Positions 190-55,124 are shown, numbered from the stretch's first letter. The stretch: 64,000 nt of DNA from Limnochordia bacterium (GCA_041686855.1 JAWLDA010000001.1:111700-175699); one strand, 5' to 3'. Made by a program: numbers and translations. The notes: generated by a model not told the origin, from the sequence alone.

Positions 190-1275
190 ATGAGCGTACG
201 AATTGGTTTCATCGGATCGGGCGGCAACGCCCGTGGTCATATGAACCGCCTAAAGAGCATTGAGAACGCCCAGCTTGTCGCCTTCGCAGATGTCCAAGAG
301 GAGGCTGCCAAGAGCGCAGCCGACGAATTCGGTTGCCGGGCGTTCACCGACGTGCGGCGCATGCTCGACGAAGCCGAGCTGGACGCAGTCTACGTGTGTA
401 TTCCTCCGTTTGCTCACGGTGACGCGGAGCGGGCGTGTCTAGAGCGGAGACTCCCAATGTACGTCGAGAAGCCCGTCCACCTTGACATTGGGGTGGCCCG
501 CGAGATTGCCGCCGAGATCGACCGGTTAGGGATCGTGACAACGTCGGGGTATCAGGAGCGCTACCTCGACATTATCGAACGCCTCAAAGCATTCCTCGTC
601 GACCACCCGGTCGGGCTCTGTATGGGATACTGGATGGGCGGTGTGGCGCGCCCAGCGTGGTGGCGGCGCAAGGCGATGTCTGGGGGACAGGCCGTCGAGC
701 AGACGACACACGTCTTTGATATGGCTCGCTACTTACTCGGTGACGTTCGCCAGGTACAGGCGGTTGCGCGCAAGGGCCTTGTAACCGAGTTTGAAGGGTA
801 CGACATCGAAGACGCATCGGCCGCCAATCTCGTCTTTGAGAGTGGCGTAATCGGTACGATCTTCTCCGGCTGCTTCCTCAACGTCAAGCAGGAGATTCCG
901 GCGGGCCTCGACCTCTACTGTCCGGACGCTGTGCTCAAGTATCGGCGCCGCAAGTCCGTCCTTGTCGCGAGTGCGGACGGCACCCAGGAGTGGGTGAATG
1001 AGAATGACTACGCCACCGATGCGGACCGGGCGTTCGTCAATGCCGTCGCAGCCAAGGATCCCTCCAAAGTGCGCTGCTCGTACGCCGACGCCGTGCGATC
1101 GCTCGAGGTGAGCCTCGCCGTCAACCGCTCGCTTGAGACGGGTGAGACGGTCGAGCTACCCTTACCGGCAGGCAGGAGCGGCGAAGCGGCCTCGCAGTAC
1201 GTGATTGGTCGCGCCGACGCCGCGGCAATGACGCATTCCGTCGGAGTCGGCGCTCTCATGGTATGTGCCGCGTGA
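190..1275 (+). CDS. Gfo/Idh/MocA family NAD(P)-dependent oxidoreductase
   Basis: N-terminal Rossmann motif IGFIGSGGNARGH; the EKP motif (YVEKPV) is typical of the family. ATG is preceded by GGAGGGACGACAG. Confidence 0.9.
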   Translation: MSVRIGFIGSGGNARGHMNRLKSIENAQLVAFADVQEEAAKSAADEFGCRAFTDVRRMLDEAELDAVYVCIPPFAHGDAERACLERRLPMYVEKPVHLDIGVAREIAAEIDRLGIVTTSGYQERYLDIIERLKAFLVDHPVGLCMGYWMGGVARPAWWRRKAMSGGQAVEQTTHVFDMARYLLGDVRQVQAVARKGLVTEFEGYDIEDASAANLVFESGVIGTIFSGCFLNVKQEIPAGLDLYCPDAVLKYRRRKSVLVASADGTQEWVNENDYATDADRAFVNAVAAKDPSKVRCSYADAVRSLEVSLAVNRSLETGETVELPLPAGRSGEAASQYVIGRADAAAMTHSVGVGALMVCAA

Positions 1276-2340
1276 TCACGCGGAACGGGTCGCTCCGTTT
1301 TCGTGTGTTGCCGCCAGGGCCGTCTGTACAAAGGGCCAGACGTCTTTCTTGTAGTAGCGGTGCCCTCCTTCTCCGATACTGAGGCCGCACTGGTCCTGTG
1401 CGCCAAAGAGTTTGTAAACCTGTTGGAGGCGCTGGAAGGCGTACTGAGTGGCGTGCACGGGGAAGATGCGGTCCTCTCGACCGGTGACCGCGAGGAACGG
1501 CCTGGGAGCAATGAGACCGGCCACGTCCCACATCTCCGCGATGCGACCCAATCCCGGGACGTAGTTGCAGGCGCAGTGACGGATGGCGAGGATTGAGTCT
1601 TTGAACGTACAAAAGTAGCTACCCGGAACAGCGACCCGGATACGTTCGTCCATTGCGGCAGAGAAGAGGGTGACCGTACCGCCACCAGAGTTGCCGGTGA
1701 TGACGATCCGGTCGGGGTCGACGTCGTCTCGCTGTGTCGCCCAGTCGATCAAACGCTGGATGTCCCATACTCGATCACCGATCAACGTACGACCAAACAT
1801 GTAAGCCCGCAATTGGAGCGTCTGGCACGAATTGTTGGCGTCTTTCTCAATATCGTCTTGGAGCCTAAGCGACGCAAAGCCGCGCATGTCGGGTGCGATG
1901 GCGATGTAACCAGCGCGGACGGCCTGCAAGGCGATGTCACGCTCACCCTCTTCCATCTGTTGGCGGTCGCTCTCCGACTCGCTGATGCCTACGTAGGTCT
2001 TTTTGCCCAGCTTCCCGTGACCATGAGGGGTCAAGACAAGAGGGAGCCGGTGATTGGGGGCCTCTATGGGACGCAGTAGGTAAAAGGGGAGATGAAAGCC
2101 GGGCTCGGTCTCGAGGCGCCACTCCTCACGAATGTGATCGGTTTGCGGCTCCGTAGAGATCTTTGTCGCGGTTAGCGGTGGTGTTCCTCGGGACGCGATC
2201 ACCGGCAGTCCGAGGAGGCGGCCGAGCTCGCTGCGGAACGACTGTTGCCAGCGCTTAGCTTCGTCGACGTCTTGAGCACGAAAGGCGAAGTGCGGGTAGG
2301 TCTCGGCGCCGAGTTGCGCTGAGTAGGTATCGGAGTTCAT
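1276..2340 (-). CDS. alpha/beta hydrolase, acetyl-xylan-esterase (AXE1)-like serine esterase
   Basis: GNSGGG nucleophile elbow and HCACNYVPG...IAPRPFL segment. Start is taken at the internal Met (MNSDTYS) with GGAGG 8 bp upstream. The longer ORF start would overlap the AraC gene by 77 bp. Confidence 0.75.
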   Translation of the reverse strand: MNSDTYSAQLGAETYPHFAFRAQDVDEAKRWQQSFRSELGRLLGLPVIASRGTPPLTATKISTEPQTDHIREEWRLETEPGFHLPFYLLRPIEAPNHRLPLVLTPHGHGKLGKKTYVGISESESDRQQMEEGERDIALQAVRAGYIAIAPDMRGFASLRLQDDIEKDANNSCQTLQLRAYMFGRTLIGDRVWDIQRLIDWATQRDDVDPDRIVITGNSGGGTVTLFSAAMDERIRVAVPGSYFCTFKDSILAIRHCACNYVPGLGRIAEMWDVAGLIAPRPFLAVTGREDRIFPVHATQYAFQRLQQVYKLFGAQDQCGLSIGEGGHRYYKKDVWPFVQTALAATHENGATRSA

Positions 2341-2365
2341 CGTGAAATCCTCCAGTCTGTAGGCC

Positions 2366-3172
2366 TTATAAATTTGGAAATGACTCTCTGTACTCGCGGG
2401 GGGAGAATCCGACCACCCGCTGGAAGGCGCGCTCAAACCCACGTAGACTTGAGAAGCCTACCGCGTATCCCACCTCCTTAATGGCGAGTGATTCTTGCAA
2501 GAGTTTGCAGGCTGTGTCGATACGGAGCTTGAGCCAGTACTGATGGGGCCCGCAACCCACATGCTCTTGAAAGAGCCGGTGGAGTTGGCGCTTGCTGACG
2601 TAAAAGCGGCGAGAGAGTTGGTCGATGGAATCGGTCTGGTCCGGTCGGCTTTTCATATAGTCAATGATCTCACGGACGACGGGAGGATGCTGTGCCGGGT
2701 GATCGTGGTCCGCGCCGTAAATTTCGCTTAGGATCACCGTCAGGAGAGCCTTGGCCGTCTCTGTGCTCACACTCTCCGGCCTGCTCAACGTGCGCGCCGA
2801 CCATAAGATGCGCTCCACGGACTCGCTTGAGAGGTTTGGAATCCACCCGCCGCCACTCTCCTGTACTTTCCGTTCCACGCTGCTTGCCAGATCGTAGGCG
2901 ACGTGAGGCATAAAATGCACCGCTGTGCGCACCCACTCGCGTTGGTCGGGACGAGTGATGTGCGGCAACTCGGCAGCAATCACCGCGGCTTGACCCGGCG
3001 CAACGTGACCCTGCCAATCTCCTGAGTAAATCTCTACACTGCCAGAGTGGACTAAAAGAATCTCTATGCCTCCATGGCGGTGGCCGTATGGATAATTTCC
3101 CGGACTAGGCTGGGTGTTTACAATATATCCACGCTGGTCCAATTGACGCTGGGTCTTGGCGCAGTGTCTCAT
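2366..3172 (-). CDS. AraC family transcriptional regulator (N-terminal cupin sensor plus C-terminal HTH)
   Basis: Cupin-like HRHGGIEILLVHSGSVEI segment. C-terminal AraC HTH (IDQLSRRFYVSKRQLHRLFQEHVG...SPREYR). Confidence 0.85.
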   Translation of the reverse strand: MRHCAKTQRQLDQRGYIVNTQPSPGNYPYGHRHGGIEILLVHSGSVEIYSGDWQGHVAPGQAAVIAAELPHITRPDQREWVRTAVHFMPHVAYDLASSVERKVQESGGGWIPNLSSESVERILWSARTLSRPESVSTETAKALLTVILSEIYGADHDHPAQHPPVVREIIDYMKSRPDQTDSIDQLSRRFYVSKRQLHRLFQEHVGCGPHQYWLKLRIDTACKLLQESLAIKEVGYAVGFSSLRGFERAFQRVVGFSPREYRESFPNL

Positions 3173-3422
3173 CGGTCTGGGGCCCCCTTTACCATGTGCT
3201 GCAACTCCAATCCCGACGATTGACTGCCATTTACCTCACTTGAGATTAATCCGACGTCTTACAAAAAACTCCTTGGTAAATGCCTGGGGTCCAGCCTGAT
3301 TCTCTTGGCACGATCGGTCGCGCGCGTGGCATTTTTGTACCAATGAATGACCGCAAAGATAGGGAAAAATGCAGCAAGCGGCAATAAGTTTAGTATTCAA
3401 CATTAGAGTGGAGGCAAGAACG

Positions 3423-4724
3423 ATGAGGGGTAAAGCGCACCAATCGCTGAGAAAATCTATGGCGCTGACTGTCGTTGCGGTGGTAACGTTGCTGTGTGCT
3501 TCGTTCAGCTGGGCTGCTGAGCCAGTTACGTTGCAGGTCCTGGTGCACGGCAGCTCGGGCACCGACTACTGGAACCGCACCCGTACATTCTTTGACGGGT
3601 TCGAAGAGCTCAACCCGGACATCAAGATTGAGATGACGCCGAGCCCGGCCTCGAACCCGGCCGAAGGATTGGCGGTCCGTGTGGCTGGCGGAATCTCTCC
3701 GGACTTGGTCCGCCTCTGGGGGGTCCCCGAGGTCGCGAAGGCCGGATTAATTCAAGACATCACCGATCGGTTTGAGCGACTCCCAAGTGATGTGCGCTCC
3801 GACTTTTGGCCGGTGCTCATCGATGGCACCTTGAGCTGGAACGGGAAGCTCTACGCGCTCCCCTTGGGTACCGCGGTGAGCAGCTACTTCTACAACAAGC
3901 GGCTCTTCAACGAGAGTGGTGTCCCCTTCCCAACCGCTGATTGGAGTTGGGAACAGGAAGGGACGCAAGAGATTCCCCGTATGACCCGCGATCAAAACGG
4001 CGATGGGACGCCGGAGACATGGGGGATTGTCCGCATCGACGGCGGATTGGGACGTGAGACGTATCACTTTAGCTACGCCGCAGGCGGCGGCCCTCTGTTC
4101 AGTCAAGACGGGACCAAGTTTCTCGGCAACTCTGATGCCGTGAAGGACGCTCTACAGTTTATTCACGACCTGGCGCACGTCCATCAGGCGATGCCGGCAC
4201 AGGGCACCGGTTGGACCAACTTTGGCGAGCAGACTGCTGCATCGATGATGTGGGGCAGCTTCATGTTTGGATTCATGCAGCGTTTCCCGGATCTGGATTG
4301 GGATATCTCGTACACCCCCACGTTCCAGGGAGGTCGGGCGACCAACATCTGGCCCGAAACCCCGTACGCGATCCCCGTCGGCGCGAAACATCCAGATGAA
4401 GCCTGGAGAGTGCTCGAGTTCATCGCCAGTGTGGAAGGGCAAACCCTGGCCATGGAGCTGGGATGGGGTATTCCTCCGGCTAGGCGCAGTGTCGCACTCT
4501 CGGCCTTCCTCGATGCCAACGCTGACGTAAACATTCCGGCCATGATCGATATGATCAACACACCCGCGACACAGGTGTTGCCCGAACACGTTCCCCAGGA
4601 TATCCGGACGTACTACTATAACAATGTGATCAAGCCGGTGGCCACCGGGGAGAAGAGCGCAGTGCAGGCGCTCGACGAGGCGAGCCCAGTCATCCAGAGT
4701 ATGCTCGACGAGTGGAACGAGTAG
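3423..4724 (+). CDS. ABC transporter substrate-binding protein (carbohydrate, family 1), orphan
   Basis: Signal peptide MRGKAHQ...SFSWAAEP. Typical SBP segments (WNGKLYALP, YYNKRLF). Start chosen at Met19 with GGAGG 8 bp upstream. No permease genes adjacent. Confidence 0.85.
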   Translation: MRGKAHQSLRKSMALTVVAVVTLLCASFSWAAEPVTLQVLVHGSSGTDYWNRTRTFFDGFEELNPDIKIEMTPSPASNPAEGLAVRVAGGISPDLVRLWGVPEVAKAGLIQDITDRFERLPSDVRSDFWPVLIDGTLSWNGKLYALPLGTAVSSYFYNKRLFNESGVPFPTADWSWEQEGTQEIPRMTRDQNGDGTPETWGIVRIDGGLGRETYHFSYAAGGGPLFSQDGTKFLGNSDAVKDALQFIHDLAHVHQAMPAQGTGWTNFGEQTAASMMWGSFMFGFMQRFPDLDWDISYTPTFQGGRATNIWPETPYAIPVGAKHPDEAWRVLEFIASVEGQTLAMELGWGIPPARRSVALSAFLDANADVNIPAMIDMINTPATQVLPEHVPQDIRTYYYNNVIKPVATGEKSAVQALDEASPVIQSMLDEWNE

Positions 4725-4784
4725 GAACGAGTAGCGTTCACAGCCCGTTTGAGCGCGTCACGACAACAGGTGAGTTAGGAGCGC

Positions 4785-4811
4785 GGGGCGACCTCTCGTT
4801 TAGGTCGCCCC
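4785..4811 (+). terminator. GC-rich hairpin (GGGGCGACC-N10-GGTCGCCCC) after the SBP gene
   Basis: Perfect 9-bp inverted repeat seen in sequence. No U-tract, so rho-independent function is uncertain. Confidence 0.35.
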
Positions 4812-4832
4812 CGTCATTAGGAGGAGATTCAG

Positions 4833-6830
4833 ATGCCGAGGGAGCTAGGAACTGCAGCCGGTTACGCCTTTCAGCAATGGCTACGCAACCAGGTGCGTAG
4901 CGAGACGTGCGCACCCGCATTTCCTCAAACCAAGGACGAAGTCGCAGAGTACCGACGAAAGGTCCGCAGTATCTTGGAGGAAGCCGCCGGGCCCACGCCC
5001 GACTACGATCCCCTTGAGGCGGAGATTCACCAAGTGCATCAACGGGACGGGTACCGGATCGAAGCGGTCAGTTTCCCGACCTTCGGTGGACTGCGGATGA
5101 CGGCTACCGCATTTGTCCCTGAGACAGACGCGCCTGTACCCGGTGTCTTGGCCGTGCACGGACACTCCAAACATGGACGGCGCGACGCCCGCAACCAACA
5201 GCGGTGTGCCGCTTTGGCTAAAGCGGGGTATTTTACGCTTGCAGTCGATGCAGTGGGGAACGGCGAACGCAGTCTCGAGCTCCCTGGCTCCTACCACGGC
5301 GGTCATCTTGCGGGGGCTCTTTGGCTCACGGGATACTCCGTCTTTGGAATTCAAATTCACGAGAACTTCCGCGCTTGTGACTACCTCGCCTCGCGACCTG
5401 AAGTGGACGAGACGCGCCTTGCCATCTCAGGAGCCTCGGGCGGAGGCAACCAGAGCTTTTACTCGGGGGCGTGGGACGGGCGTTTCACCGCGGTTGTCCC
5501 TGTCTGTTCGATGGGGGCGTATCGCAAGTTTGTGGGATCGTTTAATTGCATGTGTGAGACTCCGTTTGGGATCGCCGGGAAGTTGGAACAGTTTGACGTG
5601 ATGGCGGCGATCGCGCCCCGAGCGCTGTTGGTTATGAGCGCGCGAGTGGATAACGTGAGCTTTCGGTACGAGGATGCCCAAGCCAACACCGAGCAGGCGA
5701 GCCGGCTTTGGGAGCTGTTTGGAGAGCGGGAGCGTGTGCGCTTTGAGTCGCTTCCTGTCTCGCACGGTTACCCCAAAGAGGCGCGTGAGGCGTGTTTAGG
5801 CTGGTTTAATCGGTGGTTAAAAGACGGAGAAGAGAGCGCCCCCATCCAAGAGATGGAGGTGCCGGTCGAAGATTACGCGACGCTGTCGTGCTATCCCACG
5901 GCAGCGACGGCGCAAGTGATGACGCTTCCGGCTTTCTTTGCCCGGAGACGGGACGAGGTTTCCCCCTCGGCTGTTGATCTCGGCATGGATGATGTACGCC
6001 GCGTCTTTGGACCGAGTCGCGAGATCTCCCTCGAGATGGAGACCATCGATCGCCTGCCCAACCTGGCAGAAGATCTCGCCGGGGCTCTGCGTGTCTACGA
6101 AAGTCCGGAAGGGGAATTGATCCCCGTCTCCGTGTACTGGCCGGATTTCACCAGCACGACCGAGCGGGTCCTTATGATGGTAGGCGATCGAAAGGAAGAT
6201 ATGGTGAAATCGCCTCTGGCAAAAGAGGCGTTGCGTACGGGGAGCACGCTCTGGGCGGTTGATCTGCCGGGTCTCGGCGAGGCGCGGTTACCGGGAGAGG
6301 TAACGGAGTACGTTGAGAATCTCCTCGGTTTGCACGGTTGCAGCAGCGCTGTGAGAGCGTGTCAACTCCTCGGGTTCCCCCTGGCCGGGTACTGGGTCTC
6401 GTTGTTGCAATCGTTGGCTCGCCACGTCCCCGAAGGGGTTGAGTCCGTGCGCCTCGCTGCCTCCGGCGGGCCTGCGACCACCGTTTTGACAGCAGCTTCT
6501 TTGCTCGATGGGTTTGAGACGATCACTGTCACACACCCATTGGTCACGTATCGGCGTGACGATCGATTCACGGGAATCCCGTTTGAAGCGTTGATTCCCA
6601 ACCTCCTAAAGGTGGGGGACATTCCCGATTTCGTGGCGGTGGCGGCGCCGAAACCTCTGACAGTTGTGGCGCCACTCGCCTCCGACGGGAGTCCTATTCC
6701 TGTGAACGAGGCGCATCGGATCCTGGAGCCGGTGGCTGCGCGGTACAAACAGCTTGGCCGGCCTCAGGCCTTTCACGTAGTCGGTGACGGAGAAGCGTCA
6801 GTGAGCCCGCTGCTCAACTTGGCTCACTAA
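4833..6830 (+). CDS. alpha/beta hydrolase, AXE1-like esterase with ~300-aa C-terminal extension
   Basis: GASGGG nucleophile motif. CMCETPFGIAG...IAPRALL is paralogous to the 1276-2340 protein. GGAGG 7 bp before ATG. The C-terminal 300 aa has no motif I recognise. Confidence 0.75.
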   Translation: MPRELGTAAGYAFQQWLRNQVRSETCAPAFPQTKDEVAEYRRKVRSILEEAAGPTPDYDPLEAEIHQVHQRDGYRIEAVSFPTFGGLRMTATAFVPETDAPVPGVLAVHGHSKHGRRDARNQQRCAALAKAGYFTLAVDAVGNGERSLELPGSYHGGHLAGALWLTGYSVFGIQIHENFRACDYLASRPEVDETRLAISGASGGGNQSFYSGAWDGRFTAVVPVCSMGAYRKFVGSFNCMCETPFGIAGKLEQFDVMAAIAPRALLVMSARVDNVSFRYEDAQANTEQASRLWELFGERERVRFESLPVSHGYPKEAREACLGWFNRWLKDGEESAPIQEMEVPVEDYATLSCYPTAATAQVMTLPAFFARRRDEVSPSAVDLGMDDVRRVFGPSREISLEMETIDRLPNLAEDLAGALRVYESPEGELIPVSVYWPDFTSTTERVLMMVGDRKEDMVKSPLAKEALRTGSTLWAVDLPGLGEARLPGEVTEYVENLLGLHGCSSAVRACQLLGFPLAGYWVSLLQSLARHVPEGVESVRLAASGGPATTVLTAASLLDGFETITVTHPLVTYRRDDRFTGIPFEALIPNLLKVGDIPDFVAVAAPKPLTVVAPLASDGSPIPVNEAHRILEPVAARYKQLGRPQAFHVVGDGEASVSPLLNLAH

Positions 6831-11525: not shown

Positions 11526-11719
11526 ATCCAACCCAATAAACTAAAACACGCTCCTTGGGCTCCCGGATGGTCGGGGTGGCCGCCGCTTCCATCGCCATCT
11601 GCACAGAATGTGCGACACGTGAGTATCATGAGTGACCACTCTCATTAACCACTGAATCCCTCGGATTTAGGACGAATTCTCAGGTCGCCAACACTTCCAT
11701 AAAGGAGCGTGTTTTCCGA

Positions 11720-12043: not shown

Positions 12044-12054
12044 GGGCAGATTTC

Positions 12055-42762: not shown

Positions 42763-42837
42763 CGTAGACGAGGAGTACGAAAGGCGTCCGCCGGATGTTT
42801 GTCCGATGTGTGGTCAATGAGTTGAAGGAGGAGAAGT

Positions 42838-45601: not shown

Positions 45602-45792
45602 GCGTCCATCACTCCCAAAGATAGATGGGCATGCATTCCCGACCCGCTTTTTCAATCCCTTCGGCGCCTCGACTCCCGCTCGCGTCTCTTAGGCGCCTCG
45701 GGAAATGGGTCTTATTGCAGGGCTATAGAGGGATTGCGTAGATTGTTAAAGAAGCGGGAACGATCACACTCTTTGAAAAGGGAGAGAGGAAT

Positions 45793-46965: not shown

Positions 46966-46988
46966 TCGAACAAATAACGTGACGGGGA

Positions 46989-47399: not shown

Positions 47400-47439
47400 A
47401 TGGAAGAGTATTCAAACTCCGACTCCTAGAGGAGAGATA

Positions 47440-48303: not shown

Positions 48304-49484
48304 GGCTGCCCGAGTCGCCTGCGGACGTCCTCAACATCGCTGTCGTCGGCACGGGGGGGCGGGCGGCAAGTCATCTCGAGACGATTCAGACCTTGAAGGA
48401 TCTTTACCGCCTCTCGGCCGTTTGCGACGTGATGCCGGGACGAGCCGATGAGGTTGGTGGGCGTCTGGGGGTTCCGGGATATACAATCCTCGATGAGATG
48501 CTCGAGCAGGAGCGTCCCGACGTTGTGCTGATCACCGTTCCACCCGAGTATCACCACACGGTCGCCTACAAAGCGATGGAGTACGGCGCCCATGTCATCT
48601 GTGAGACGCCCATAGCGATTGCGCTTCCATACGCCGATGCGATGATCAATTTGGCCAAGGAGAAGGGCGTCGCAATCGAAGTGGCGGAGAACGTGTGGCG
48701 GCATCCCGAAGAGCGCTTTAAGAGAATGATTGTAGACTCCGGAATGCTTGGGGACGTGCGAGTGATGCACATGCACTACTCAGCTGGTTCCTACCACGGC
48801 ATGAGTGCTGTCCGAAACCTCATCACCTCCAATCCGGTTCGGGCGATCGGGATGGCACGCCTGATGAAGGCACCGAAGCGGCGCAAATACGTCGACCCGT
48901 TCCACTTCCGCACCTTTGGTCCGCCGGGGGATCAGCCACCTGCCCACCTTTCGGAGTCCGACCTCGCGAGTTGGGAAGCGGGGATGATCGAGTTTGACGA
49001 CGGTGCGGTGGTCAGTTACGAGTTTCCCATGGCCAGCCCATCGGGTCGTGGATGGGATCTACAGGCGACCGAAGGATGGATGTCCCTCACCGAGGTCGTG
49101 CTGATGAACGAGCCCCAACGGCGCTACCGGATCGTGACCGAGTATGACGGGGAGGGCGAGAGTCGTGTACTCACCTCCGTGCGCCTCTACGATGGGGATC
49201 GACCGCTCTCAGATGTCGTGTGGGAGAATCCATTTCTGCGCTACAAGACGAAAGGCCCTGACGACGTAGCCCGAATCGACCAACTGGTGAGCGTCTATCG
49301 CTCGCGAACCGAAGGGATCCAACCGGAGTACGACGGTCATGAAGGTCGCAAGGATATGGAACTCTTGATCGCGGTGCGGGAGTCTGCCCGACTGGGTAGC
49401 CAACCTGTTGCACTCCCCCTGAACGAAGTGACGGGGTATGAAAGGCGGCTCTTTCCCGTTTACGGAGAGCCTCCAGGGAGGTGA
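48300..49484 (+). CDS. Gfo/Idh/MocA family oxidoreductase
   Basis: LNIAVVGTGGRAASH Rossmann motif. GTGA overlap with the upstream gene. Confidence 0.8.
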   Translation: MRLPESPADVLNIAVVGTGGRAASHLETIQTLKDLYRLSAVCDVMPGRADEVGGRLGVPGYTILDEMLEQERPDVVLITVPPEYHHTVAYKAMEYGAHVICETPIAIALPYADAMINLAKEKGVAIEVAENVWRHPEERFKRMIVDSGMLGDVRVMHMHYSAGSYHGMSAVRNLITSNPVRAIGMARLMKAPKRRKYVDPFHFRTFGPPGDQPPAHLSESDLASWEAGMIEFDDGAVVSYEFPMASPSGRGWDLQATEGWMSLTEVVLMNEPQRRYRIVTEYDGEGESRVLTSVRLYDGDRPLSDVVWENPFLRYKTKGPDDVARIDQLVSVYRSRTEGIQPEYDGHEGRKDMELLIAVRESARLGSQPVALPLNEVTGYERRLFPVYGEPPGR

Positions 49485-50050
49485 CGGCGGTGCCGGCACG
49501 ATTTTTGATGGTTCGTCCAGACTTGGAGGCTCTTCCGCAATTAAATCTGCCCGAAGGGTACACCCTCCGCACGTATGTCGATGGGGACGAAGAGGCCTGG
49601 TGCGCCCTGATGGAAGGCGAGATCGGAACGGGGTGGACGTTGAAGAAGTGGCGTACGGATATGGCCGGGCAACCGCAGTTCGATCCCCAAGGGCTTTATT
49701 TTATTGAGATAGAGGGGCGTCCCGTCGCTTCGGCATGTGCCTGGTCTCTCCCGGACAAATACGGGCCCCAGACCGGGGTGCTGCACATGGTGGCCGTACA
49801 TCCCGACCACAGGGGCAAGCGATTGGGCAAAGAGGTGAGCCTGGCCGTGCTGCACTTCTTCCGGGAGCACGGCTACAGCGACGCAGCGCTACATACCGAT
49901 GAGGAACGACCGGCGGCAATTCGGACGTACTTCAACCTCGGTTTTCGGCCCAGTTTTCGTTCGGACGACGAGAAGGCCGGCTGGGAGCGGGTGACCCAGC
50001 ATTGGCCGGAATTGGGCCAAGAACGACCCAAAGAGGGGACAAGCGCGTGA
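49481..50050 (+). CDS. GNAT family N-acetyltransferase
   Basis: HMVAVHPDHRGKRLGK acetyl-CoA-binding motif. GTGA overlaps on both sides. Confidence 0.75.
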   Translation: MTAVPARFLMVRPDLEALPQLNLPEGYTLRTYVDGDEEAWCALMEGEIGTGWTLKKWRTDMAGQPQFDPQGLYFIEIEGRPVASACAWSLPDKYGPQTGVLHMVAVHPDHRGKRLGKEVSLAVLHFFREHGYSDAALHTDEERPAAIRTYFNLGFRPSFRSDDEKAGWERVTQHWPELGQERPKEGTSA

Positions 50051-51015
50051 AAGACGAGATTCGAATCGGGTTGATAGGATGCGGGGTGCGCAGTCGCGTC
50101 CACATCGCTGGGTTTGGTGGAACGGCGAATGCTCGGATCGCGGCCGTCTGCGACGTGGATGACCAGAAGGCACTGGAGGTCGGGAACACGCTGGGCGTCC
50201 CGGCCTATCAGGATGCAGCCGCCATGCTCGAGAATGAGCAGATCGACGCAGCGTGCATCGTGGCGCCGGCGTTTGTTCGAGGCGTCATCGAAGACGTCTG
50301 CATTGACGCAGGCGTGCCGTTTCTGCTTGAGAAGCCGGTCGCCGTCGAGGTCGAGATTGCAGCGCGCATCTCGGAGCGGTTGAGAGCCTCGGGCCTTATG
50401 GCCTGTATCGGCTATCAATTGCGCTACGGGGCGGAGGCGCGGGCGATTCGCCGCTGGAGTGAGGGGCGGCAGATCGGGCTCACTGAGGGCAGGTACTGGA
50501 GTGGCTCCGCTCGCCGGCGGCCCGAAGTTGCGGAGAATCCTCGCATCGGGGGCCAATTGATTGAGCAGGTGACGCATACGTTTGATCTCATGCGCTATTG
50601 GATGGGAGACGTCGAAGAGGTCTTCTCGTACCAGACGCGCAGCTTGGTCGAGCGCGCCGGAACGGCCAACGACTCGTCGGCCGTGGCACTTAAGTTCGCC
50701 GATGGCGCCGTTGGATCGACTCTAGCGACTTGGGGCTCCTCCGCCAAGTATGGTGAAGCCAACGTCGTCACACTCTTCGCCGGAGAGAATCGGGTTGAGT
50801 ATCGCACCGGCAAGGCGCCCATGACGCCACAAGGGCCTCTTGAGACTGTCGATGGGCCGACGCTGCACGAAGCGTTTGTGGAGGCAGTTCGTACAGGTGA
50901 TCCTGCGGGCATCCTCTCTCCGTACGACGATGCGCTGCAGACGCTTTTGGTTTCGGTGGCAGCCAACGAGTCGGCCCGCACGGGGAAACCAGTGCGCATT
51001 GATCGTTTGATCTAA
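50047..51015 (+). CDS. Gfo/Idh/MocA family oxidoreductase
   Basis: IRIGLIGCGVRSRVH Rossmann motif. LEKPVA motif. GTG start with AGAGGGG upstream. Confidence 0.85.
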   Translation: MKDEIRIGLIGCGVRSRVHIAGFGGTANARIAAVCDVDDQKALEVGNTLGVPAYQDAAAMLENEQIDAACIVAPAFVRGVIEDVCIDAGVPFLLEKPVAVEVEIAARISERLRASGLMACIGYQLRYGAEARAIRRWSEGRQIGLTEGRYWSGSARRRPEVAENPRIGGQLIEQVTHTFDLMRYWMGDVEEVFSYQTRSLVERAGTANDSSAVALKFADGAVGSTLATWGSSAKYGEANVVTLFAGENRVEYRTGKAPMTPQGPLETVDGPTLHEAFVEAVRTGDPAGILSPYDDALQTLLVSVAANESARTGKPVRIDRLI

Positions 51016-51040
51016 GGCGAGTATACGAGGAGGCTCGGAG

Positions 51041-52888
51041 ATGTCGGGACTCTTTTTGGTGAAAGACGGGCAACCGACCAGCGTGATCGTGCGCGAAGTG
51101 GCAGCGGGGCTCAATGCGCCTTTGGACGATGCAATCGAGGAGTTGCAGGAGGCGGTACGACGGGCGAGTGGGGCGACGCTTGATCTCGTCTCGCCGCTCC
51201 AATTCGCCGATCTCCCCAAAGAGGTTGTACGCATCTCCGTGGGTCCGACCCGTCTGACGCGCGCACTCGGAATCGACCCCGAGAGTTTGCCACCAGAGAC
51301 GTTTCGAGTCGTGGCTCGGGAGAATTCACTCGCCCTTGTCGGTAGCGCCCTCACGCCCGATGCTACGCTTTGGGCCGTTGTCCACTTTCTCGATCGATGC
51401 TTGGGAGTGCGCTGGCTATGGCCGGGAGAGACCGGCACTTACGTCCCAAAGCACTCGACCATCTCCCTGCCCTCAATCGATGTGACAGCGCGCCCTGGCC
51501 TCGAGAAGCGTAACTTGCGCGTCTCGGCATTGGCTCCCAAGGAAGGGACACGGTGGCTACGGGTCCACCAGATGGGGAGTCGCAGTCAATACTCGTTTGG
51601 GCACGCGTTTATGCATTGGTGGGACGCGTACCATGTGGAGCATCCAAAGCTTTTCGCGGTGCCCCCGCCAGGAAAAGAGCAAGTACGGGGAGACCGGGTC
51701 AAGCTCAACATTGCCAATCCGTCGATCGATGACGTCATCCTCCGGGAGTGGCAGGCAGCCGGTACGCCGGATAACTGGAATGTCTCTCCCAACGACGGGA
51801 CTGGCTTTTGCACGTGCGATGCGTGTCGGGCGATGGATGTTCCCACAGACCAGCCGCCTGAGGAGATTTGGGCGGGCAAGGCGAAACTGGCCGCACGGTA
51901 CGTGCGCTTTTGGAATCGACTCCTTGCAAAGATGCGGGCGATCAATCCGCGGGCGACACTCTCCGCGTATGCGTACAGTGCCTATCGGGACCTGCCCCCG
52001 GAAGTGCGACTACAAGACGGCATTGTGTTAGGTTTTGTGCACACCTACTGGGCCCAGGAGCGTTGGCAGGCATGGTCGGCTGCCGGAGCCAAGCTGCTCC
52101 TCCGTCCCAACTGGTGGTACTCCGGCGGTATCGCTCCCCACCTTCCCCTGCACTCACAAGGGGAGTTCTTTCAGTTTGCTCAGGAGAACGGCATGATTGG
52201 GTTTGACTTTGACACTCTGCACGGACACTGGGCGACGCAAGGCGTGCTCTATTACCTCATTGCACGATTAGCTGAACGCCCGGAACTCTCCATCGACGAC
52301 GTAATCCGGGAGTATGCGTCCGCCTTTGGCCGTGCGGCGCCCGCGATCGTCGAGTACATCTCGTACTGGGAGCGTTTCTCGGAGGAAGCCGCCGTCCCCG
52401 CCGCCGCGGGCGGCGTCGTCACCCAGGAGAGGCGAGGGCGGTATGAGGAGATTGCCGAAGCGTACGGCGTGCCCCTCCATCCTATCACGGGGAGTTACCC
52501 CGCTTTGCAATACCTGTACACCGACGACGTTATCCATGACGCGCGCTCGATTCTTGACAGGGCGGAGGCGTTGGCACAGGACGACGAGGACATCGTCCAC
52601 GAGCGGATTGCTTTCTTGCGAGATGGGTTGCGTCACGTGGAGCTGACTCGGGACCTGGTGAGCATCGGGTACGAGGGGGCGCCGGACGATGACGCTTCTG
52701 CCGCGTTTGGGAAGATGCGTGAAGAGTTGGAGCGTTTCCGTGCGGACGCCTCTGAGCGACATGTCGTCTGGGCGCCCGTTCTGGCCGCGTACGAGGCGCG
52801 TCGTCAGATTCCCACTCACGAGAGTCGGATCGTGCGTCGTAAGGAGGAGCTCGCGCAAATCAATCAGAGTGAGCGTCACTTCGGGTGA
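51041..52888 (+). CDS. DUF4838-like domain protein (glycoside-hydrolase-related fold, function unknown)
   Basis: N-terminal segment LFLVKDGQPTSVIV..A.EELQE and the CTCDACRAMD cysteine motif resemble DUF4838 proteins. GAGGAGG 8 bp before ATG. Assignment made from memory, not by search. Confidence 0.5.
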   Translation: MSGLFLVKDGQPTSVIVREVAAGLNAPLDDAIEELQEAVRRASGATLDLVSPLQFADLPKEVVRISVGPTRLTRALGIDPESLPPETFRVVARENSLALVGSALTPDATLWAVVHFLDRCLGVRWLWPGETGTYVPKHSTISLPSIDVTARPGLEKRNLRVSALAPKEGTRWLRVHQMGSRSQYSFGHAFMHWWDAYHVEHPKLFAVPPPGKEQVRGDRVKLNIANPSIDDVILREWQAAGTPDNWNVSPNDGTGFCTCDACRAMDVPTDQPPEEIWAGKAKLAARYVRFWNRLLAKMRAINPRATLSAYAYSAYRDLPPEVRLQDGIVLGFVHTYWAQERWQAWSAAGAKLLLRPNWWYSGGIAPHLPLHSQGEFFQFAQENGMIGFDFDTLHGHWATQGVLYYLIARLAERPELSIDDVIREYASAFGRAAPAIVEYISYWERFSEEAAVPAAAGGVVTQERRGRYEEIAEAYGVPLHPITGSYPALQYLYTDDVIHDARSILDRAEALAQDDEDIVHERIAFLRDGLRHVELTRDLVSIGYEGAPDDDASAAFGKMREELERFRADASERHVVWAPVLAAYEARRQIPTHESRIVRRKEELAQINQSERHFG

Positions 52889-52918: not shown

Positions 52919-54217
52919 CTACTCTTCGGCGAGGATCGCGTTGATTTGGCGAGAAGCCTCCGCCAATGCTTCGCCGGCACCGATCCGGCCAGCCAAGATG
53001 TTGAGGCTCACCTGTGTCAACGTGCGGCGAATCTCGGGCTTGGGGTAGCGAGGCAGGGGCGTGAATGTGTTCATGGTCTCATTCCAGACGGCTTCCACCG
53101 CGGTGCGAAACTGCCCGTAGCTCATCTGGAGATCGATATGAGGCCTCACGAGGCTTCGTTGATTGGGTATGTTCCCGAGTTGTGTCATCTGGTACTCGGC
53201 TTGGTGTGGAACAATAAACTTGAGGACTTCCCAGGCTGCGTCTGTTCGTGGAGACGCAGCGTTAATCATCCATGGCTGGAACGAGGCCATGGTATGCCGT
53301 CCAGCCGGCCCTGACGGGTATGGGACGTAGTCGGGCAGATACGGGAAGAGACCGATGTGAAAGGCGGTAGGCGTGCCCTGGTCAAAGACGACGTCCCCGC
53401 TCTCGCGCCGCTCGTACGTACCGGGCGCCTCCAGATCAGCAATGACGATCGCGTCTCTTACGACTTGGTCGGCCATCCACTCGTACGCCGTCACCGTTTC
53501 GAGCGAGTTGATCGCCGTCTGATTGCTGTCGACCGACATCACGTTGCCGCCGAAGTTCCAAATAAACGGCCATTCGTTGAACGCGGAACTCGCCGTACCC
53601 AGGAGACCGATCTGGACGAGATGCCCTTCGCCTTCACGTTCGGTCACTTTCGTCGCGTAAAGGGCGAAGGTCTCCTGATCCCACCGACCCGCATCGAAGA
53701 GAGCGTTGGGGTCTTCGAGGCCGGCCGCGTTGAGCGCGGCGGCGTGGTACGCCATGGGCTTGACGTAAACGGATCCGGGGATGCCGACGGTCTTCCCGTT
53801 GTACCGATCGAAAAAGAGGAGCTCTTGCGCGAAGTCACGCTCCTGCGCTAAAAAGCCGTCGAGCGGGAGGGCAGAGTTGGTCAAGTAAACACTGTTCGCG
53901 TCCTCCGGCTCCATAATAAAGAGATCCGGCGCCTCGTCTCCAAGGGTTGCGAGCATGACAAGGACTTTCTCTGCGTACTCGGAGGCGCGCCCGGGGACGA
54001 CCATCAAATTGATGTCGATGTTGGGGTGGTCAAACTCCTGAAGTAGCCGTTGTAAATTGGGTTGGGGGCCGGCCTCTTCGACGAACTGTCCCCACACGGC
54101 CACATTGACGGTCGTTGCCGCGGCGCTTTGCGCTGAAACAGGGCGCACAGCGGCTCCAAACGCCCCAACCAGCGCTATGAGGACTCCAATGAGAAACGGG
54201 TTCGCCATTCGATGCAC
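52919..54217 (-). CDS. ABC transporter substrate-binding protein (carbohydrate), orphan
   Basis: Signal peptide MANPFLIGVLIALVGAFGAAVRPVSAQS. SBP family-1 pattern. GAGGGA upstream of GTG. Confidence 0.85.
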   Translation of the reverse strand: MHRMANPFLIGVLIALVGAFGAAVRPVSAQSAAATTVNVAVWGQFVEEAGPQPNLQRLLQEFDHPNIDINLMVVPGRASEYAEKVLVMLATLGDEAPDLFIMEPEDANSVYLTNSALPLDGFLAQERDFAQELLFFDRYNGKTVGIPGSVYVKPMAYHAAALNAAGLEDPNALFDAGRWDQETFALYATKVTEREGEGHLVQIGLLGTASSAFNEWPFIWNFGGNVMSVDSNQTAINSLETVTAYEWMADQVVRDAIVIADLEAPGTYERRESGDVVFDQGTPTAFHIGLFPYLPDYVPYPSGPAGRHTMASFQPWMINAASPRTDAAWEVLKFIVPHQAEYQMTQLGNIPNQRSLVRPHIDLQMSYGQFRTAVEAVWNETMNTFTPLPRYPKPEIRRTLTQVSLNILAGRIGAGEALAEASRQINAILAEE

Positions 54218-54278
54218 GGTCGCATCCCTCCCCTCAAAACAATATCAGAAAACCTCTATGCGAGCCATGGTCTCGCCG

Positions 54279-55124
54279 TTACGCTTGCGCCATGGCTCGC
54301 TCAATGTTCTCGCGGGCCACGAGAATGCGACGGTCCAACTCCTGCGCTGACGCCGGTTCACGATCGGTGCCATCAAGTCGTTCAATCACGACAGGGCCGT
54401 CGAAGCCTCTCTGCTTAAGCACCCGAAAGATGCGCACCCAATCAATATCACCCTCACACGGGATCGGGAAGTTCACTTCGGCTCGAGCGCCCTTGTGGTC
54501 CTTGGCGATCAAGCAGTGAATCTCGTCTGCGATATACTCGAGATCCTCTTCGGGCGAGATCCCCTCGTAAAAGCGGACGTTGCCTGGATCGTAACATCCC
54601 CGCACACTCGGATGACCCACATCGGCGAGGGTCTTGGCGAGCACGCGCGCCGTTGCGGTGTTCCCTGTGTGCGGCTTAAATGTGATGGTGATGCCTCGGG
54701 TTGCCGCGTGCTCGGCGACCGGCTTCACTCGCTCTAGGAAGATTTGGTGCTCACGTTTTTGTTCGGCGGCGGGCTTTGGCTCTTCGGGGGCCTGGGTGTA
54801 CCCAAACACCCGGTAGCCAAAGGGTCCGAGCCAGACGACCATTTTAGCGCCGACGTCCGCGGCGAAGTCAATGCGGCGTTGCATCTCTTCGACCTCGAGG
54901 TTCATCACTTGGACTCCGTAAAGGACAGAGGGCTGGAGTCGATACGCTTCGCACATACGCGCGACTCGGGAAGCTTCGGACGGCGTGTGCTCTTGGGGTA
55001 CACCGACGCCGGCATGGCGCAGGCCAAATCCGACGAAGCGGTAGCCGGCCCCGGCGACACCTTCGAGCGCGCGTTCAAAGGGGTAACGGGCGTACGGCAA
55101 GGTGAAACAGACGAGCTCAGACAT
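54279..55124 (-). CDS. sugar phosphate isomerase/epimerase (xylose-isomerase-like TIM barrel)
   Basis: FTLPYARYPFERALEGVAGAGYRFVGFGLRHAG. Paralogous to the 47440-48303 protein. Confidence 0.85.
   Translation of the reverse strand: MSELVCFTLPYARYPFERALEGVAGAGYRFVGFGLRHAGVGVPQEHTPSEASRVARMCEAYRLQPSVLYGVQVMNLEVEEMQRRIDFAADVGAKMVVWLGPFGYRVFGYTQAPEEPKPAAEQKREHQIFLERVKPVAEHAATRGITITFKPHTGNTATARVLAKTLADVGHPSVRGCYDPGNVRFYEGISPEEDLEYIADEIHCLIAKDHKGARAEVNFPIPCEGDIDWVRIFRVLKQRGFDGPVVIERLDGTDREPASAQELDRRILVARENIERAMAQA

What the first reader, a model, noticed from the sequence alone, without database searches (positions are those of the whole stretch)
190..55124. Extreme local enrichment of Gfo/Idh/MocA oxidoreductases (11) paired with xylose-isomerase-like TIM-barrel proteins (5)
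Gfo-family genes: 190, 10527, 14522, 19831, 24825, 29496, 39182, 42838, 48300, 50047 (plus the divergent N-terminal variant at 14522).
TIM-barrel sugar phosphate isomerase/epimerase genes: 23344, 28654, 47440, 54279.
Also present are a GH105 hydrolase remnant and a DUF4838 protein.

Pairing a Gfo oxidoreductase with a TIM-barrel partner is the architecture of 3-keto-glycoside pathways. In those, C3 oxidation of the sugar is followed by a TIM-barrel lyase or deglycosidase (ThuAB-type and C-glycoside DgpA/DgpBC-type systems), rather than classical glycoside hydrolysis. The gene pairs 28654+29496 and 47440+48300 have overlapping stop/start codons, arguing for functional coupling. The window may represent a multi-locus oxidative, non-hydrolytic glycoside-cleavage repertoire.
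Basis: inference. Interest (0 to 1): 0.55.

Follow-up and report, generated by a model that had tools for sequence, protein, structure and literature searches.

The report
Sugar-oxidoreductase and TIM-barrel gene island

Summary
The enrichment is real, but the counts are 10 Gfo/Idh/MocA genes and 4 PF01261 TIM-barrel genes, not 11 and 5. That is 10 of about 52 genes (P about 7.5e-8 even at a 2% background).

Only the six CUT1-type solute-binding proteins look secreted; every enzyme looks cytoplasmic. The stop/start overlaps are correct.

Both directly adjacent TIM+Gfo pairs recur elsewhere:
- The 28654 family has a Gfo29496-type ortholog in 29 of 80 genome loci, always on the same strand.
- The 47440/54279 family has a Gfo gene within about 2 kb in 24 of 40 metagenome loci.

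No protein reaches the cut-off of any characterised family tested (IolG, IolE, LGDH, BT_2158/2159). Profile matches to DgpC, C-glycoside deglycosidases, AtOGE, AtHYD and YcjR are weaker than those to ketose epimerases, Art22 and IolI/IolE. There is no DUF1080 gene above threshold, no ThuA, no DgpB-like subunit and no TAT-exported Gfo.

Best reading: a multi-operon cytoplasmic "oxidise, then enolise" island for imported glycosides or modified sugars. It is analogous to, but not a member of, the known 3-keto-glycoside systems. Glycosidic cleavage is plausible but unproven.

The 47440/54279 family lacks two of the four canonical metal ligands.

Moderate-to-low interest.

The parts
190..1275 (+). 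Gfo/Idh/MocA oxidoreductase, cytoplasmic
   Evidence: PF01408 3.7e-21 plus C-domains. IolG model 113 bits against a cut-off of 355. No signal peptide.
1276..6830 (.). Module A accessories: esterase (1276-2442 -), AraC regulator (2366-3172 -), secreted CUT1 solute-binding protein (3369-4724 +), second esterase (4833-6830 +)
   Evidence: Abhydrolase_7/AXE1/glucuronyl-esterase-like, HTH_18/AraC_binding and SBP_bac_1 hits. Only the SBP has a hydrophobic N-terminus.
10527..15673 (+). Module B: Gfo (10527-11525), Zn-dependent alcohol dehydrogenase (11926-13047), secreted SBP (13153-14475), atypical Gfo (14522-15673, Rossmann domain only)
   Evidence: No TIM barrel lies in this module.
16973..19768 (+). 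Two frameshifted genes: an SBP_bac_1 gene (16973-17674 + 17536-18267) and a GH88/105 gene (18270-19430 + 19223-19768)
   Evidence: The halves of each Pfam profile lie in different frames.
19831..24228 (-). Module C, a tightly packed minus-strand string: TIM barrel (23344-24228), ROK/NagC-like regulator (22174-23331), secreted SBP (20900-22243), Gfo (19831-20889)
   Evidence: PF01261 3.8e-35, ROK 4.7e-42, SBP_bac_1 and PF01408 7.5e-29. The TIM keeps the canonical Glu/Asp/His/Glu positions. Gaps are 10-12 nt or the genes overlap.
24825..25994 (+). Gfo oxidoreductase, divergent from module C
   Evidence: Three Gfo Pfam domains.
26153..31249 (+). Module D: LacI regulator (26153-27154), secreted SBP (27318-28556), TIM barrel (28654-29496), Gfo (29496-30527), GntR/FCD regulator (30527-31249)
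   Evidence: TAATG overlaps at both junctions. The TIM+Gfo pair is conserved in 29 of 80 genome loci, all on the same strand. AF2 model pLDDT 97. Canonical E144/D174/H201/E244 are invariant.
39182..43845 (+). Module E1: Gfo (39182-40216), M20 ArgE/DapE-type deacylase (40213-41502), unknown 388-aa protein (41596-42762), Gfo (42838-43845)
   Evidence: GTGA overlap between Gfo and M20, and an AAGGAG ribosome-binding site before ATG 39182. Orthologs of these two Gfo types and of M20 flank 47440-family TIM genes elsewhere.
44057..45655 (-). Sulfatase without a signal peptide
   Evidence: PF00884 3.8e-26; N-terminus.
45793..52888 (+). Module E2: amidohydrolase_2 (45793-46965), TIM barrel (47440-48303), Gfo (48300-49484), GNAT (49481-50050), Gfo (50047-51015), DUF4838 (51041-52888)
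   Evidence: Three consecutive GTGA overlaps. The true TIM start is GTG 47440, giving P0123 of 287 aa. The TIM carries non-canonical KPH / DPGN / AKDH motifs.
52919..55926 (-). Module F: GDPD phosphodiesterase (55243-55926), TIM barrel (54279-55124, 45% identical to 47440), secreted SBP (52919-54217)
   Evidence: It has the same non-canonical motifs as 47440.

Best explanation
The window carries a catabolic island of at least six small, separately regulated modules in an uncultured, probably Limnochordia-like Bacillota bacterium. The regulators are of AraC, ROK, LacI and GntR type.

**Shown**
- Each module combines a secreted CUT1-type ABC solute-binding protein with one or two cytoplasmic Gfo/Idh/MocA dehydrogenases.
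- Four modules also hold a PF01261 TIM-barrel enzyme.
- Cytoplasmic esterases, a sulfatase, an M20 deacylase, an amidohydrolase and a GNAT sit alongside.
- The two directly adjacent TIM+Gfo pairs are translationally coupled and recur across phyla.

**Inferred mechanism**
1. Small glycosides, oligosaccharides or decorated sugars are imported, using permeases encoded elsewhere.
2. They are de-esterified or desulfated in the cytoplasm.
3. A Gfo enzyme oxidises a ring hydroxyl to a ketone with NAD(P)+.
4. The TIM-barrel enzyme uses that carbonyl to abstract the alpha-proton. The enolate then undergoes beta-elimination of the aglycone or leaving group, hydration, or epimerisation.
5. A second Gfo enzyme reduces the keto product.

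I favour, at roughly 45-50%, that at least one module performs a 3-keto-type elimination/hydration analogous to the levoglucosan, AtOGE/HYD or P2B11 pathways. These proteins are not members of those characterised families, and their substrates are unknown.
For: - Gene inventory and exact counts.
- Only the SBPs have signal-peptide-like N-termini, and no Gfo has a TAT motif.
- All binding proteins are SBP_bac_1/SBP_bac_8. By established knowledge this CUT1 class mainly takes di/oligosaccharides and glycosides.
- The only classical GH is a frameshifted GH88/105 gene.
- Stop/start overlaps link TIM-Gfo-GntR, TIM-Gfo-GNAT-Gfo and Gfo-M20.
- 28654 family: 29 of 80 genome loci from Lentisphaerota, Oscillospiraceae, Spirochaetales, Armatimonadota and Gemmatimonadaceae carry a Gfo29496-type ortholog, all on the same strand, 25 of them within 4.3 kb.
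- 47440 family: 24 of 40 loci have a Gfo gene within about 2 kb. Gfo density is 2.19 per 10 kb near the TIM gene against 0.19 per 10 kb further away.
- A Cohnella operon reads AraC, permease, permease, Gfo, Gfo, TIM, Gfo, with an SBP gene just upstream of AraC.
- T23344 and T28654 keep the Glu/Asp/His/Glu metal site used for enolisation in this superfamily.
- Published precedents show this same three-part architecture doing oxidation-elimination-hydration-reduction (PMC7676230; PMC10066097; PMC10628242; 10.1101/2024.03.25.586180).
- Characterised lyases within PF01261 are mutually dissimilar; AtOGE is described as 'unrelated in sequence' to the C-glycoside enzymes. Lack of similarity is therefore weak evidence against lyase function.
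Against: - No protein meets any curated family cut-off.
- TIM profiles rank epimerases, isomerases and IolE/IolI above all 3-keto-glycoside enzymes.
- Foldseek gives only generic superfamily matches.
- There is no DUF1080 gene above threshold, no ThuA and no DgpB-like subunit.
- Neighbours of the conserved pairs in other genomes vary and include no glycoside-specific marker.
- Six of the ten Gfo genes have no TIM partner.
- No permease, ATPase or sugar kinase gene lies in the window, so the flow from uptake to central metabolism cannot be traced.
- Two invariant Arg residues in the 28654 family and the FCD-type GntR could point to an anionic non-glycoside substrate. This is inference only.
Confidence: 0.5

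Rival explanations
1. Cyclitol or monosaccharide interconversion without glycosidic cleavage. The Gfo enzymes would be inositol-, aldose- or keto-sugar-type dehydrogenases. The TIM barrels would be inosose-dehydratase/isomerase-like (IolE, IolI, IolO, MocC) or keto-sugar epimerases (YcjR-like), feeding unusual free sugars or cyclitols into central metabolism.
For: - The best NCBIfam model for nine of the ten Gfo proteins is IolG; Gfo48300 scores highest on the archaeal UDP-GlcNAc 3-dehydrogenase model. IolE is the best model for the 47440/54279 TIMs. All are sub-threshold.
- The best PDB profile hits are epimerases, isomerases, IolI and IolE.
- The Gfo + SBP + TIM + GntR layout recalls rhizopine mocABC(R). 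This comes from my own knowledge and was not tested.
- Zn-ADH next to Gfo10527 recalls ycjQ/ycjS.
Against: - All scores are far below the equivalog cut-offs: IolG at most 178 against 355, IolE at most 49 against 290.
- No iolB/C/D/J/A genes are present.
- Every binding protein is CUT1-type rather than the CUT2 type usual for monosaccharides and inositols (established knowledge).
- Esterases, a sulfatase and a GH88/105 gene point to decorated glycans.
Confidence: 0.33
2. One reading: the whole window is a dedicated, multi-locus, non-hydrolytic glycoside-cleavage repertoire, with every TIM barrel a keto-glycoside lyase or deglycosidase of the DgpBC, ThuAB or BT type.
For: Architecture, coupling and scarcity of GH genes, as for the best explanation.
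Against: - The family membership tests fail.
- There is no DgpB-like small subunit, ThuA, DUF1080 or TAT-exported Gfo.
- Six Gfo genes have no TIM partner.
- The 47440/54279 family lacks two canonical metal ligands, whereas the characterised lyases are Mn2+/Co2+ enzymes.
Confidence: 0.12
3. No common function. The region would be a loose accumulation of unrelated oxidoreductase paralogs in a variable genomic area, and the apparent pairing would be incidental.
For: - The paralogs are only 19-36% identical.
- The island is not syntenic in relatives whose sulfite reductase is 76% identical.
- Two frameshifted genes suggest decay.
Against: - Both adjacent TIM+Gfo pairs recur across phyla on the same strand.
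- 1- and 4-nt overlaps indicate co-translation.
- Each module has its own binding protein and regulator.
Confidence: 0.05

Closest known systems
Levoglucosan pathway LgdA/LgdB1/LgdB2/LgdC (Bacillus smithii, Paenarthrobacter)
   Same: A cytoplasmic cluster of an ABC solute-binding protein, Gfo dehydrogenases and PF01261 TIM barrels of about 275-325 aa. Its logic is oxidation, beta-elimination, hydration and reduction (PMC7676230, PMC10066097).
   Different: No window Gfo is an LgdA: the best LGDH model score is 138 bits against a cut-off of 650. Similarity to LgdB1/B2 could not be tested because no sequence was available. No permease genes lie in the window.
P2B11 Iso1-Oxido1-Oxido2-Iso2 glucuronide-cleaving cluster and BT2156-2160 / AL1-5 clusters (Nasseri et al.)
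   Same: Gfo dehydrogenase(s) plus 'sugar phosphate isomerase' TIM barrel(s) act together on glycosides via 3-keto intermediates. P2B11 comes from a Gram-positive bacterium and lacks DUF1080.
   Different: - BT/AL use a TAT-exported Gfo, a DUF1080 lyase and a His/Asp/His Co2+ site in the TIM lyase. Here all enzymes are cytoplasmic, and BT_2158/2159 model scores are at most 58 bits against cut-offs of 650-750.
- The TIM sites here are Glu/Asp/His/Glu or the non-canonical Lys variant.
- No solved Gfo structure is close to Gfo29496 or Gfo48300; the best hits are at 1e-14 to 1e-15.
A. tumefaciens GlycDH / AtOGE / AtHYD operon
   Same: A Gfo oxidoreductase with two PF01261 proteins, one a beta-eliminase and one a hydratase (PMC10628242).
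   Different: The 28654-family profile hits AtOGE (8bvk) only at 2e-3 and AtHYD (8ro4) at 9e-6. The 47440-family profile hits neither.
C-glycoside deglycosidase DgpA / DgpB-DgpC (CarBC)
   Same: A Gfo dehydrogenase plus a PF01261 TIM barrel.
   Different: No small second-subunit gene lies beside any TIM. DgpC1 scores 9e-8 and the 7bvr/7exz chain 1.5e-6 for the 28654 family, and neither is hit by the 47440 family. The DgpA match of Gfo48300 covers the Rossmann domain only.
myo-Inositol catabolism IolG / IolE / IolI and rhizopine MocABC
   Same: Gfo dehydrogenase plus PF01261 dehydratase/isomerase, with a binding protein and a GntR-type regulator. IolG is the top (sub-threshold) model for nine of the ten Gfo proteins, and IolE for the 47440/54279 TIMs.
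   Different: Scores are far below the equivalog cut-offs. No other iol genes are present. The binding proteins are CUT1-type.
E. coli YcjQ/YcjR/YcjS (3-keto-glycoside epimerisation)
   Same: [quoted passage not shown] YcjR is PDB 6wn6.
   Different: YcjR is hit only at 6e-8 by the 28654 family and 3e-5 by the 47440 family. The window's Zn-ADH module has no TIM barrel.

Membership tests
BT2156-2160 / AL1-5 alternative glycan-breakdown system | Glycoside 3-dehydrogenase of the BT_2158 or BT_2159 family | tested here: not met
   NCBIfam NF058561 scores at most 42 bits (cut-off 750) and NF058563 at most 58 bits (cut-off 650) for all ten Gfo proteins.
BT2156-2160 / AL1-5 alternative glycan-breakdown system | DUF1080 (PF06439) lyase/hydratase in the cluster | tested here: not met
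   No called gene hits PF06439. The only trace is a 21-bit sub-threshold hit (cut-off 26.8) in a roughly 110-aa ConA-like fragment at 24312-24646(-), which matches Laminin_G_3 better.
BT2156-2160 / AL1-5 alternative glycan-breakdown system | Periplasmic location, with a TAT or Sec signal on the Gfo and lyase | tested here: not met
   No hydrophobic or twin-arginine N-terminus on any Gfo or TIM.
BT2156-2160 / AL1-5 alternative glycan-breakdown system | TIM lyase with a His/Asp/His metal site plus a catalytic Glu | tested here: not met
   The first metal-ligand position is Glu in T28654 and T23344 and Lys in T47440 and T54279.
Levoglucosan (LGDH) pathway | LgdA equivalog | tested here: not met
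   NF052479 scores at most 138 bits against a cut-off of 650.
Levoglucosan (LGDH) pathway | LgdB1-type beta-eliminase next to LgdA | not testable with these tools
   No LgdB1 sequence or model was available. Only the shared Pfam family PF01261 and a similar length could be noted.
C-glycoside deglycosidase DgpBC / CarBC | Two-subunit enzyme: a TIM subunit plus a small partner encoded alongside | tested here: not met
   The genes flanking the four TIMs are SBP, Gfo, ROK, amidohydrolase and GDPD. No small unassigned ORF is conserved beside them.
C-glycoside deglycosidase DgpBC / CarBC | Specific sequence similarity to DgpC or C-glycoside deglycosidase chains | tested here: not met
   A1 profile: 9m3b 9e-8, 7bvr/7exz 1.5e-6, 7bvs 4e-10, all weaker than the epimerase and IolI hits. 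A2 profile: none at E <= 0.01.
AtOGE / AtHYD (A. tumefaciens) | Specific similarity to 8BVK or 8RO4 | tested here: not met
   A1: 2e-3 and 9e-6. A2: none. Foldseek places 8ro4 at rank 11 with TM 0.81, which is generic for the fold.
ThuAB 3-keto-trehalose system | ThuA (PF06283) partner of the Gfo enzyme ThuB | tested here: not met
   No ThuA domain appears in any of about 52 scanned proteins.
myo-Inositol catabolism (IolG/IolE) | IolG and IolE equivalog scores | tested here: not met
   TIGR04380 scores at most 178 bits (cut-off 355). TIGR04379 scores at most 49 bits (cut-off 290).
myo-Inositol catabolism (IolG/IolE) | Accompanying iolB/C/D/J/A genes | tested here: not met
   None appears in the Pfam inventory of the window.
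Xylose-isomerase-like TIM barrel superfamily (PF01261) | Pfam gathering score and an (alpha/beta)8 fold | tested here: met
   88-160 bits against a cut-off of 31 for all four proteins. AF2 models have pLDDT 97 and 95.6, with TM 0.75-0.85 to solved members.
Xylose-isomerase-like TIM barrel superfamily (PF01261) | Canonical Glu/Asp/His/Glu metal tetrad | tested here: inconclusive
   Met in T28654 and T23344. In T47440 and T54279, Glu is replaced by Lys (KPH) and the His two residues before K-D is replaced by Cys/Ile/Val, while Asp and Glu are kept.
Gfo/Idh/MocA oxidoreductases (PF01408) | N-terminal Rossmann domain above the gathering score | tested here: met
   54-115 bits against a cut-off of 24 for all ten. 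Eight also match the C-terminal domains; 14522 and 48300 do not.

The most novel reading that the evidence does not exclude
The 47440/54279 TIM-barrel subfamily has invariant KPH[TG]G[ND], DPGN, AKDH and VER motifs. It lacks the canonical metal-binding Glu and His, and it lies next to Gfo dehydrogenases in Paenibacillaceae and many metagenome contigs. It could be a mechanistically distinct, so far uncharacterised class of keto-sugar-processing enzyme, for example a Lys-assisted or differently metallated beta-eliminase/hydratase. The island would then encode new non-hydrolytic glycoside-cleaving chemistries.
Probability: 0.15. Interest if true: 0.6.

Novelty: new member of a known kind. Interest (0 to 1): 0.32.

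Why it matters
Oxidative, elimination-based glycoside breakdown has recently been recognised as a widespread alternative to Koshland glycosidases. Its sequence space is still poorly mapped, because the lyases arose several times inside PF01261.

This window offers two TIM+Gfo pairs that are conserved across phyla, translationally coupled, and outside every characterised clade. One of them has an altered active site. Both are concrete candidates for assay.

If they prove to be glycoside-cleaving, annotation of thousands of 'sugar phosphate isomerase/epimerase' and 'Gfo/Idh/MocA oxidoreductase' genes in Bacillota, Lentisphaerota and Armatimonadota would improve. If they prove to be epimerases or dehydratases, the region is an ordinary sugar-scavenging island.

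Tried and rejected
- **Exact look-ups.** The window proteins are found only in a MAG (GCA_041685055.1, a 4.9 kb contig) and in a 580 kb contig that could not be retrieved, so a genome-wide Gfo count was not possible.
- **Taxonomy.** The window's own genome was not among the loci returned by the genome-contig scan. The nearest named sulfite-reductase hits are Limnochordia MAGs (70% and 62%), Acidobacteriota (68%) and Armatimonadota (60%), so the taxon is only tentative.
- **Neighbourhoods of 28654-family homologs.** They gave no consistent substrate marker; LacI, DUF1961, URO-D and prepilin-like genes appear.
- **Foldseek of both AF2 models against PDB.** It returned only generic superfamily neighbours and does not separate lyase from epimerase.
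- **NCBIfam on binding proteins, esterases, sulfatase, M20 and ROK.** It gave no substrate-specific model.
- **The 388-aa protein at 41596.** It has no Pfam, NCBIfam or PDB sequence match.
- **Art22, the best PDB hit of the 28654 family.** No paper on it was found in the library.
- **A possible DUF1080 gene upstream of TIM23344.** I rejected it as a sub-threshold ConA-like fragment.
- **Recent duplication as the cause of the enrichment.** Rejected, because the paralogs are 19-36% identical.
- **RNA genes.** Rfam and tRNA scans found nothing.

Full report
**Observation**

I called ORFs and scanned about 52 gene products against Pfam. All ten listed Gfo/Idh/MocA genes and all four listed PF01261 'xylose-isomerase-like' TIM-barrel genes are present at the stated coordinates.

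The title figures of 11 and 5 each over-count by one. A tblastn of all 14 proteins against the window finds no further copy or fragment.

Ten Gfo genes among about 52 genes is far more than chance. The binomial P is 1e-10 at a 1% background and 7.5e-8 at a generous 2%. About 57 kb from contigs of relatives contains none. The paralogs share only 19-36% identity, and only TIM47440 and TIM54279 are closer, at 45%. The cluster is therefore an old assemblage, not a recent amplification.

The claimed overlaps are correct and more extensive than stated:
- TAATG joins TIM28654-Gfo29496-GntR.
- GTGA joins TIM47440-Gfo48300-GNAT-Gfo50047.
- GTGA joins Gfo39182-M20.

'Pairing' holds strictly for two TIM genes. 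TIM23344 shares a tight minus-strand string with a ROK regulator, an SBP and Gfo19831. TIM54279 has only an SBP and a GDPD gene beside it. Six Gfo genes have no TIM neighbour.

**Anatomy**

The region falls into modules. Each has its own regulator (AraC, ROK/NagC-like, LacI, GntR/FCD) and its own SBP_bac_1/SBP_bac_8 binding protein. There are six binding-protein genes, one of them frameshifted.

Only these binding proteins have signal-peptide-like N-termini. Every other product looks cytoplasmic, and no Gfo has a twin-arginine leader. That covers the Gfo and TIM proteins, two Abhydrolase_7/AXE1/glucuronyl-esterase-like esterases, a sulfatase, an ArgE/DapE-type M20 deacylase, an amidohydrolase_2, a GNAT and DUF4838.

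No ABC permease, ATPase or sugar kinase gene lies in the 64 kb. The only classical glycoside hydrolase is a GH88/105 gene split by a frameshift.

The window matches a MAG (GCA_041685055.1). Its nearest named relatives, judged by sulfite reductase, are Limnochordia MAGs. YheCD-type genes in related contigs are consistent with Bacillota. The island is not syntenic in those relatives.

**Are the TIM+Gfo pairs functional units?**

Yes, for both adjacent pairs.

*28654 family (alignment A1).* A scan of species-representative genomes returned 80 loci from Lentisphaerota, Oscillospiraceae, Spirochaetales, Armatimonadota, WS1, 'Zipacnadia', Planctomycetota and others. In 29 of them a Gfo29496-type ortholog (at least 35% identity) is present. 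All 29 are on the same strand as the TIM gene, 25 lie within 4.3 kb, and nine are directly adjacent. LacI-type regulators also recur.

*47440/54279 family (alignment A2).* In 24 of 40 usable metagenome loci a Gfo gene lies within about 2 kb, 23 of them on the same strand. Gfo density is 2.19 per 10 kb near the TIM gene against 0.19 per 10 kb more than 5 kb away.
- The partners are orthologs of the window's Gfo39182, Gfo42838 and Gfo10527 types.
- M20, GNAT and amidohydrolase_2 orthologs also recur.
- Window region 39182-51015 is therefore a spread-out version of a conserved module.
- In Cohnella the family sits in an operon reading AraC, permease, permease, Gfo, Gfo, TIM, Gfo, with an SBP gene just upstream of AraC.

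**Do they belong to known oxidative glycoside-cleavage families?**

No.
- None of the ten Gfo proteins approaches an NCBIfam equivalog cut-off: IolG at most 178 against 355, LGDH at most 138 against 650, BT_2158 at most 42 against 750, BT_2159 at most 58 against 650.
- None of the TIM proteins reaches any cut-off; IolE scores at most 49 against 290.
- The A1 profile searched against PDB ranks Art22 isomerase (4e-22), MJ1311, 3tva, AsbF, ketose 3-epimerases and IolI first.
- The 3-keto-glycoside enzymes come well below these for A1: 7bvs/7exb 4e-10, YcjR 6e-8, DgpC1 9e-8, 7bvr/7exz 1.5e-6, AtHYD 9e-6, AtOGE 2e-3.
- The A2 profile is remote from everything solved. Its best hits are 3tva at 4e-8 and IolE at 1.5e-7. 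It does not reach DgpC, AtOGE or AtHYD at all.
- AlphaFold models are confident, with pLDDT 97 and 95.6. Foldseek gives only generic superfamily neighbours at TM 0.75-0.85.
- The window has no DUF1080 gene above threshold, no ThuA, no DgpB-like small subunit and no exported Gfo. A roughly 110-aa ConA-like fragment upstream of TIM23344 gives a 21-bit sub-threshold DUF1080 hit but matches Laminin_G_3 better, and I do not count it.

**Active sites**

T28654 and T23344 keep the canonical Glu/Asp/His/Glu tetrad.

The A2 family, including both window members, invariably has K-P-H where the first metal-binding Glu sits. This is supported by hhalign to A1 and by HMM alignments to 3tva and UlaE. IolE has His at this position. 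The family also has Cys/Ile/Val where the canonical His lies two residues before the K-D motif, followed by an invariant His after K-D. Asp (DPGN) and Glu (VER) are retained.

The family is modest in size: 130 clusters (50% identity) at E <= 1e-30 among 1.84 billion proteins. KPH/DPGN motifs are seen in many, though not all, of the more distant hits.

**Interpretation**

The published systems share one logic: levoglucosan LgdA/B1/B2/C, A. tumefaciens GlycDH/OGE/HYD, BT/AL1-4, the Gram-positive P2B11 cluster, and DgpA/BC. A Gfo enzyme makes a 3-ketone. A PF01261 (or DUF1080) enzyme then abstracts the now-acidic C2 proton and eliminates the leaving group. A related enzyme hydrates the glycal, and a Gfo enzyme reduces the product.

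The same oxidise-then-enolise logic underlies IolG/IolE and YcjS/YcjR, where the outcome is dehydration or epimerisation. The window fits that general logic well.

Several features tilt me toward imported glycosides or decorated sugars as substrates. By established knowledge, CUT1-type binding proteins mainly take di/oligosaccharides and glycosides. Classical GHs are nearly absent, and the accessory enzymes deacylate or desulfate and are cytoplasmic.

Because PF01261 lyases are polyphyletic, failing the membership tests lowers the claim 'is a DgpC/OGE/BT1' more than the claim 'works like one'.

My estimates are:
- about 0.5 for the best explanation, which covers the general logic plus at least one module doing a 3-keto-type elimination/hydration;
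- about 0.33 for cyclitol or monosaccharide interconversion only;
- about 0.05 for incidental clustering.

**Novelty and interest**

Gfo+PF01261+SBP clusters and the oxidative cleavage route are already described. This is a dense new instance with members of uncharacterised subfamilies, so I file it as a new member of a known kind.

The most interesting element is the A2 subfamily's altered metal site next to conserved Gfo partners. I score overall interest at about 0.3. It yields good assay candidates, but the computational result is not surprising.

Noticed in passing
window 37744-38977: A 1.5 kb intergenic stretch between the S15 peptidase gene and Gfo39182 consists of three tandem arrays: 40 bp x3.7, 230 bp x3.3 (89% matches) and 16 bp x8.8. 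The 230-nt unit folds on the minus strand into long hairpins, with z = -2.7. There is no Rfam hit and no copy in any fetched locus.
   Followed up: partly
window 16973-18267: An SBP_bac_1 gene is split into N- and C-terminal halves in different frames (16973-17674 and 17536-18267). It is either a pseudogene or an assembly error.
   Followed up: partly
window 18270-19768: The GH88/105 gene is likewise split: profile positions 44-188 lie in ORF 18270-19430 and positions 196-336 in ORF 19223-19768. Two adjacent frameshifted genes suggest a decaying operon or a poor assembly stretch.
   Followed up: partly
window 1-64000; L086: The window has six CUT1 solute-binding protein genes but no ABC permease or ATPase gene. 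A contig whose TIM protein is 72% identical (L086) has SBP genes at several points without adjacent permeases (one upstream, then two side by side), and elsewhere a full SBP-permease-permease set.
   Followed up: partly
window 24312-24646 (-): A short ConA-like/Laminin_G_3 fragment (49 bits) lies between TIM23344 and Gfo24825. It also gives a sub-threshold DUF1080 '3-keto-disaccharide hydrolase' hit of 21 bits against a cut-off of 26.8. Only about 110 aa are codable, so it is probably a remnant. In L084 a ConA-like DUF1961 gene lies between a 28654-family TIM gene and a Gfo gene.
   Followed up: partly
window 47440-48303 and 54279-55124; alignment A2: This TIM subfamily has invariant KPH, DPGN, AKDH and VER motifs. 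It lacks the canonical metal-binding Glu and His of PF01261 enzymes.
   Followed up: yes
window 30527-35578: A GntR/FCD regulator is translationally coupled to the TIM28654-Gfo29496 pair. It is followed 112 nt later by prpD-prpC-prpB (methylcitrate cycle) and an enoyl-CoA hydratase. Which operon it regulates is unclear, and GntR is not a neighbour of the pair in other genomes.
   Followed up: no
window 41596-42762: A 388-aa protein lies between the M20 deacylase and Gfo42838. It has no Pfam, NCBIfam or PDB sequence match.
   Followed up: partly
window 44057-45655 (-): A sulfatase (PF00884) has no signal peptide and so appears cytoplasmic. No formylglycine-generating enzyme or anaerobic sulfatase-maturase gene showed up in the Pfam inventory of the window.
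   Followed up: no
window 56428-63946; L144, L145: The sulfate-assimilation genes run cysD, cysNC, sulfite reductase, cysH, a small ORF, sirC, cobA. Relatives whose sulfite reductase is 76% identical share the central block (sulfite reductase, cysH, small ORF, sirC, cobA), but cysD and cysNC are placed differently. The upstream genes are entirely different, so the Gfo/TIM island borders a conserved block.
   Followed up: partly
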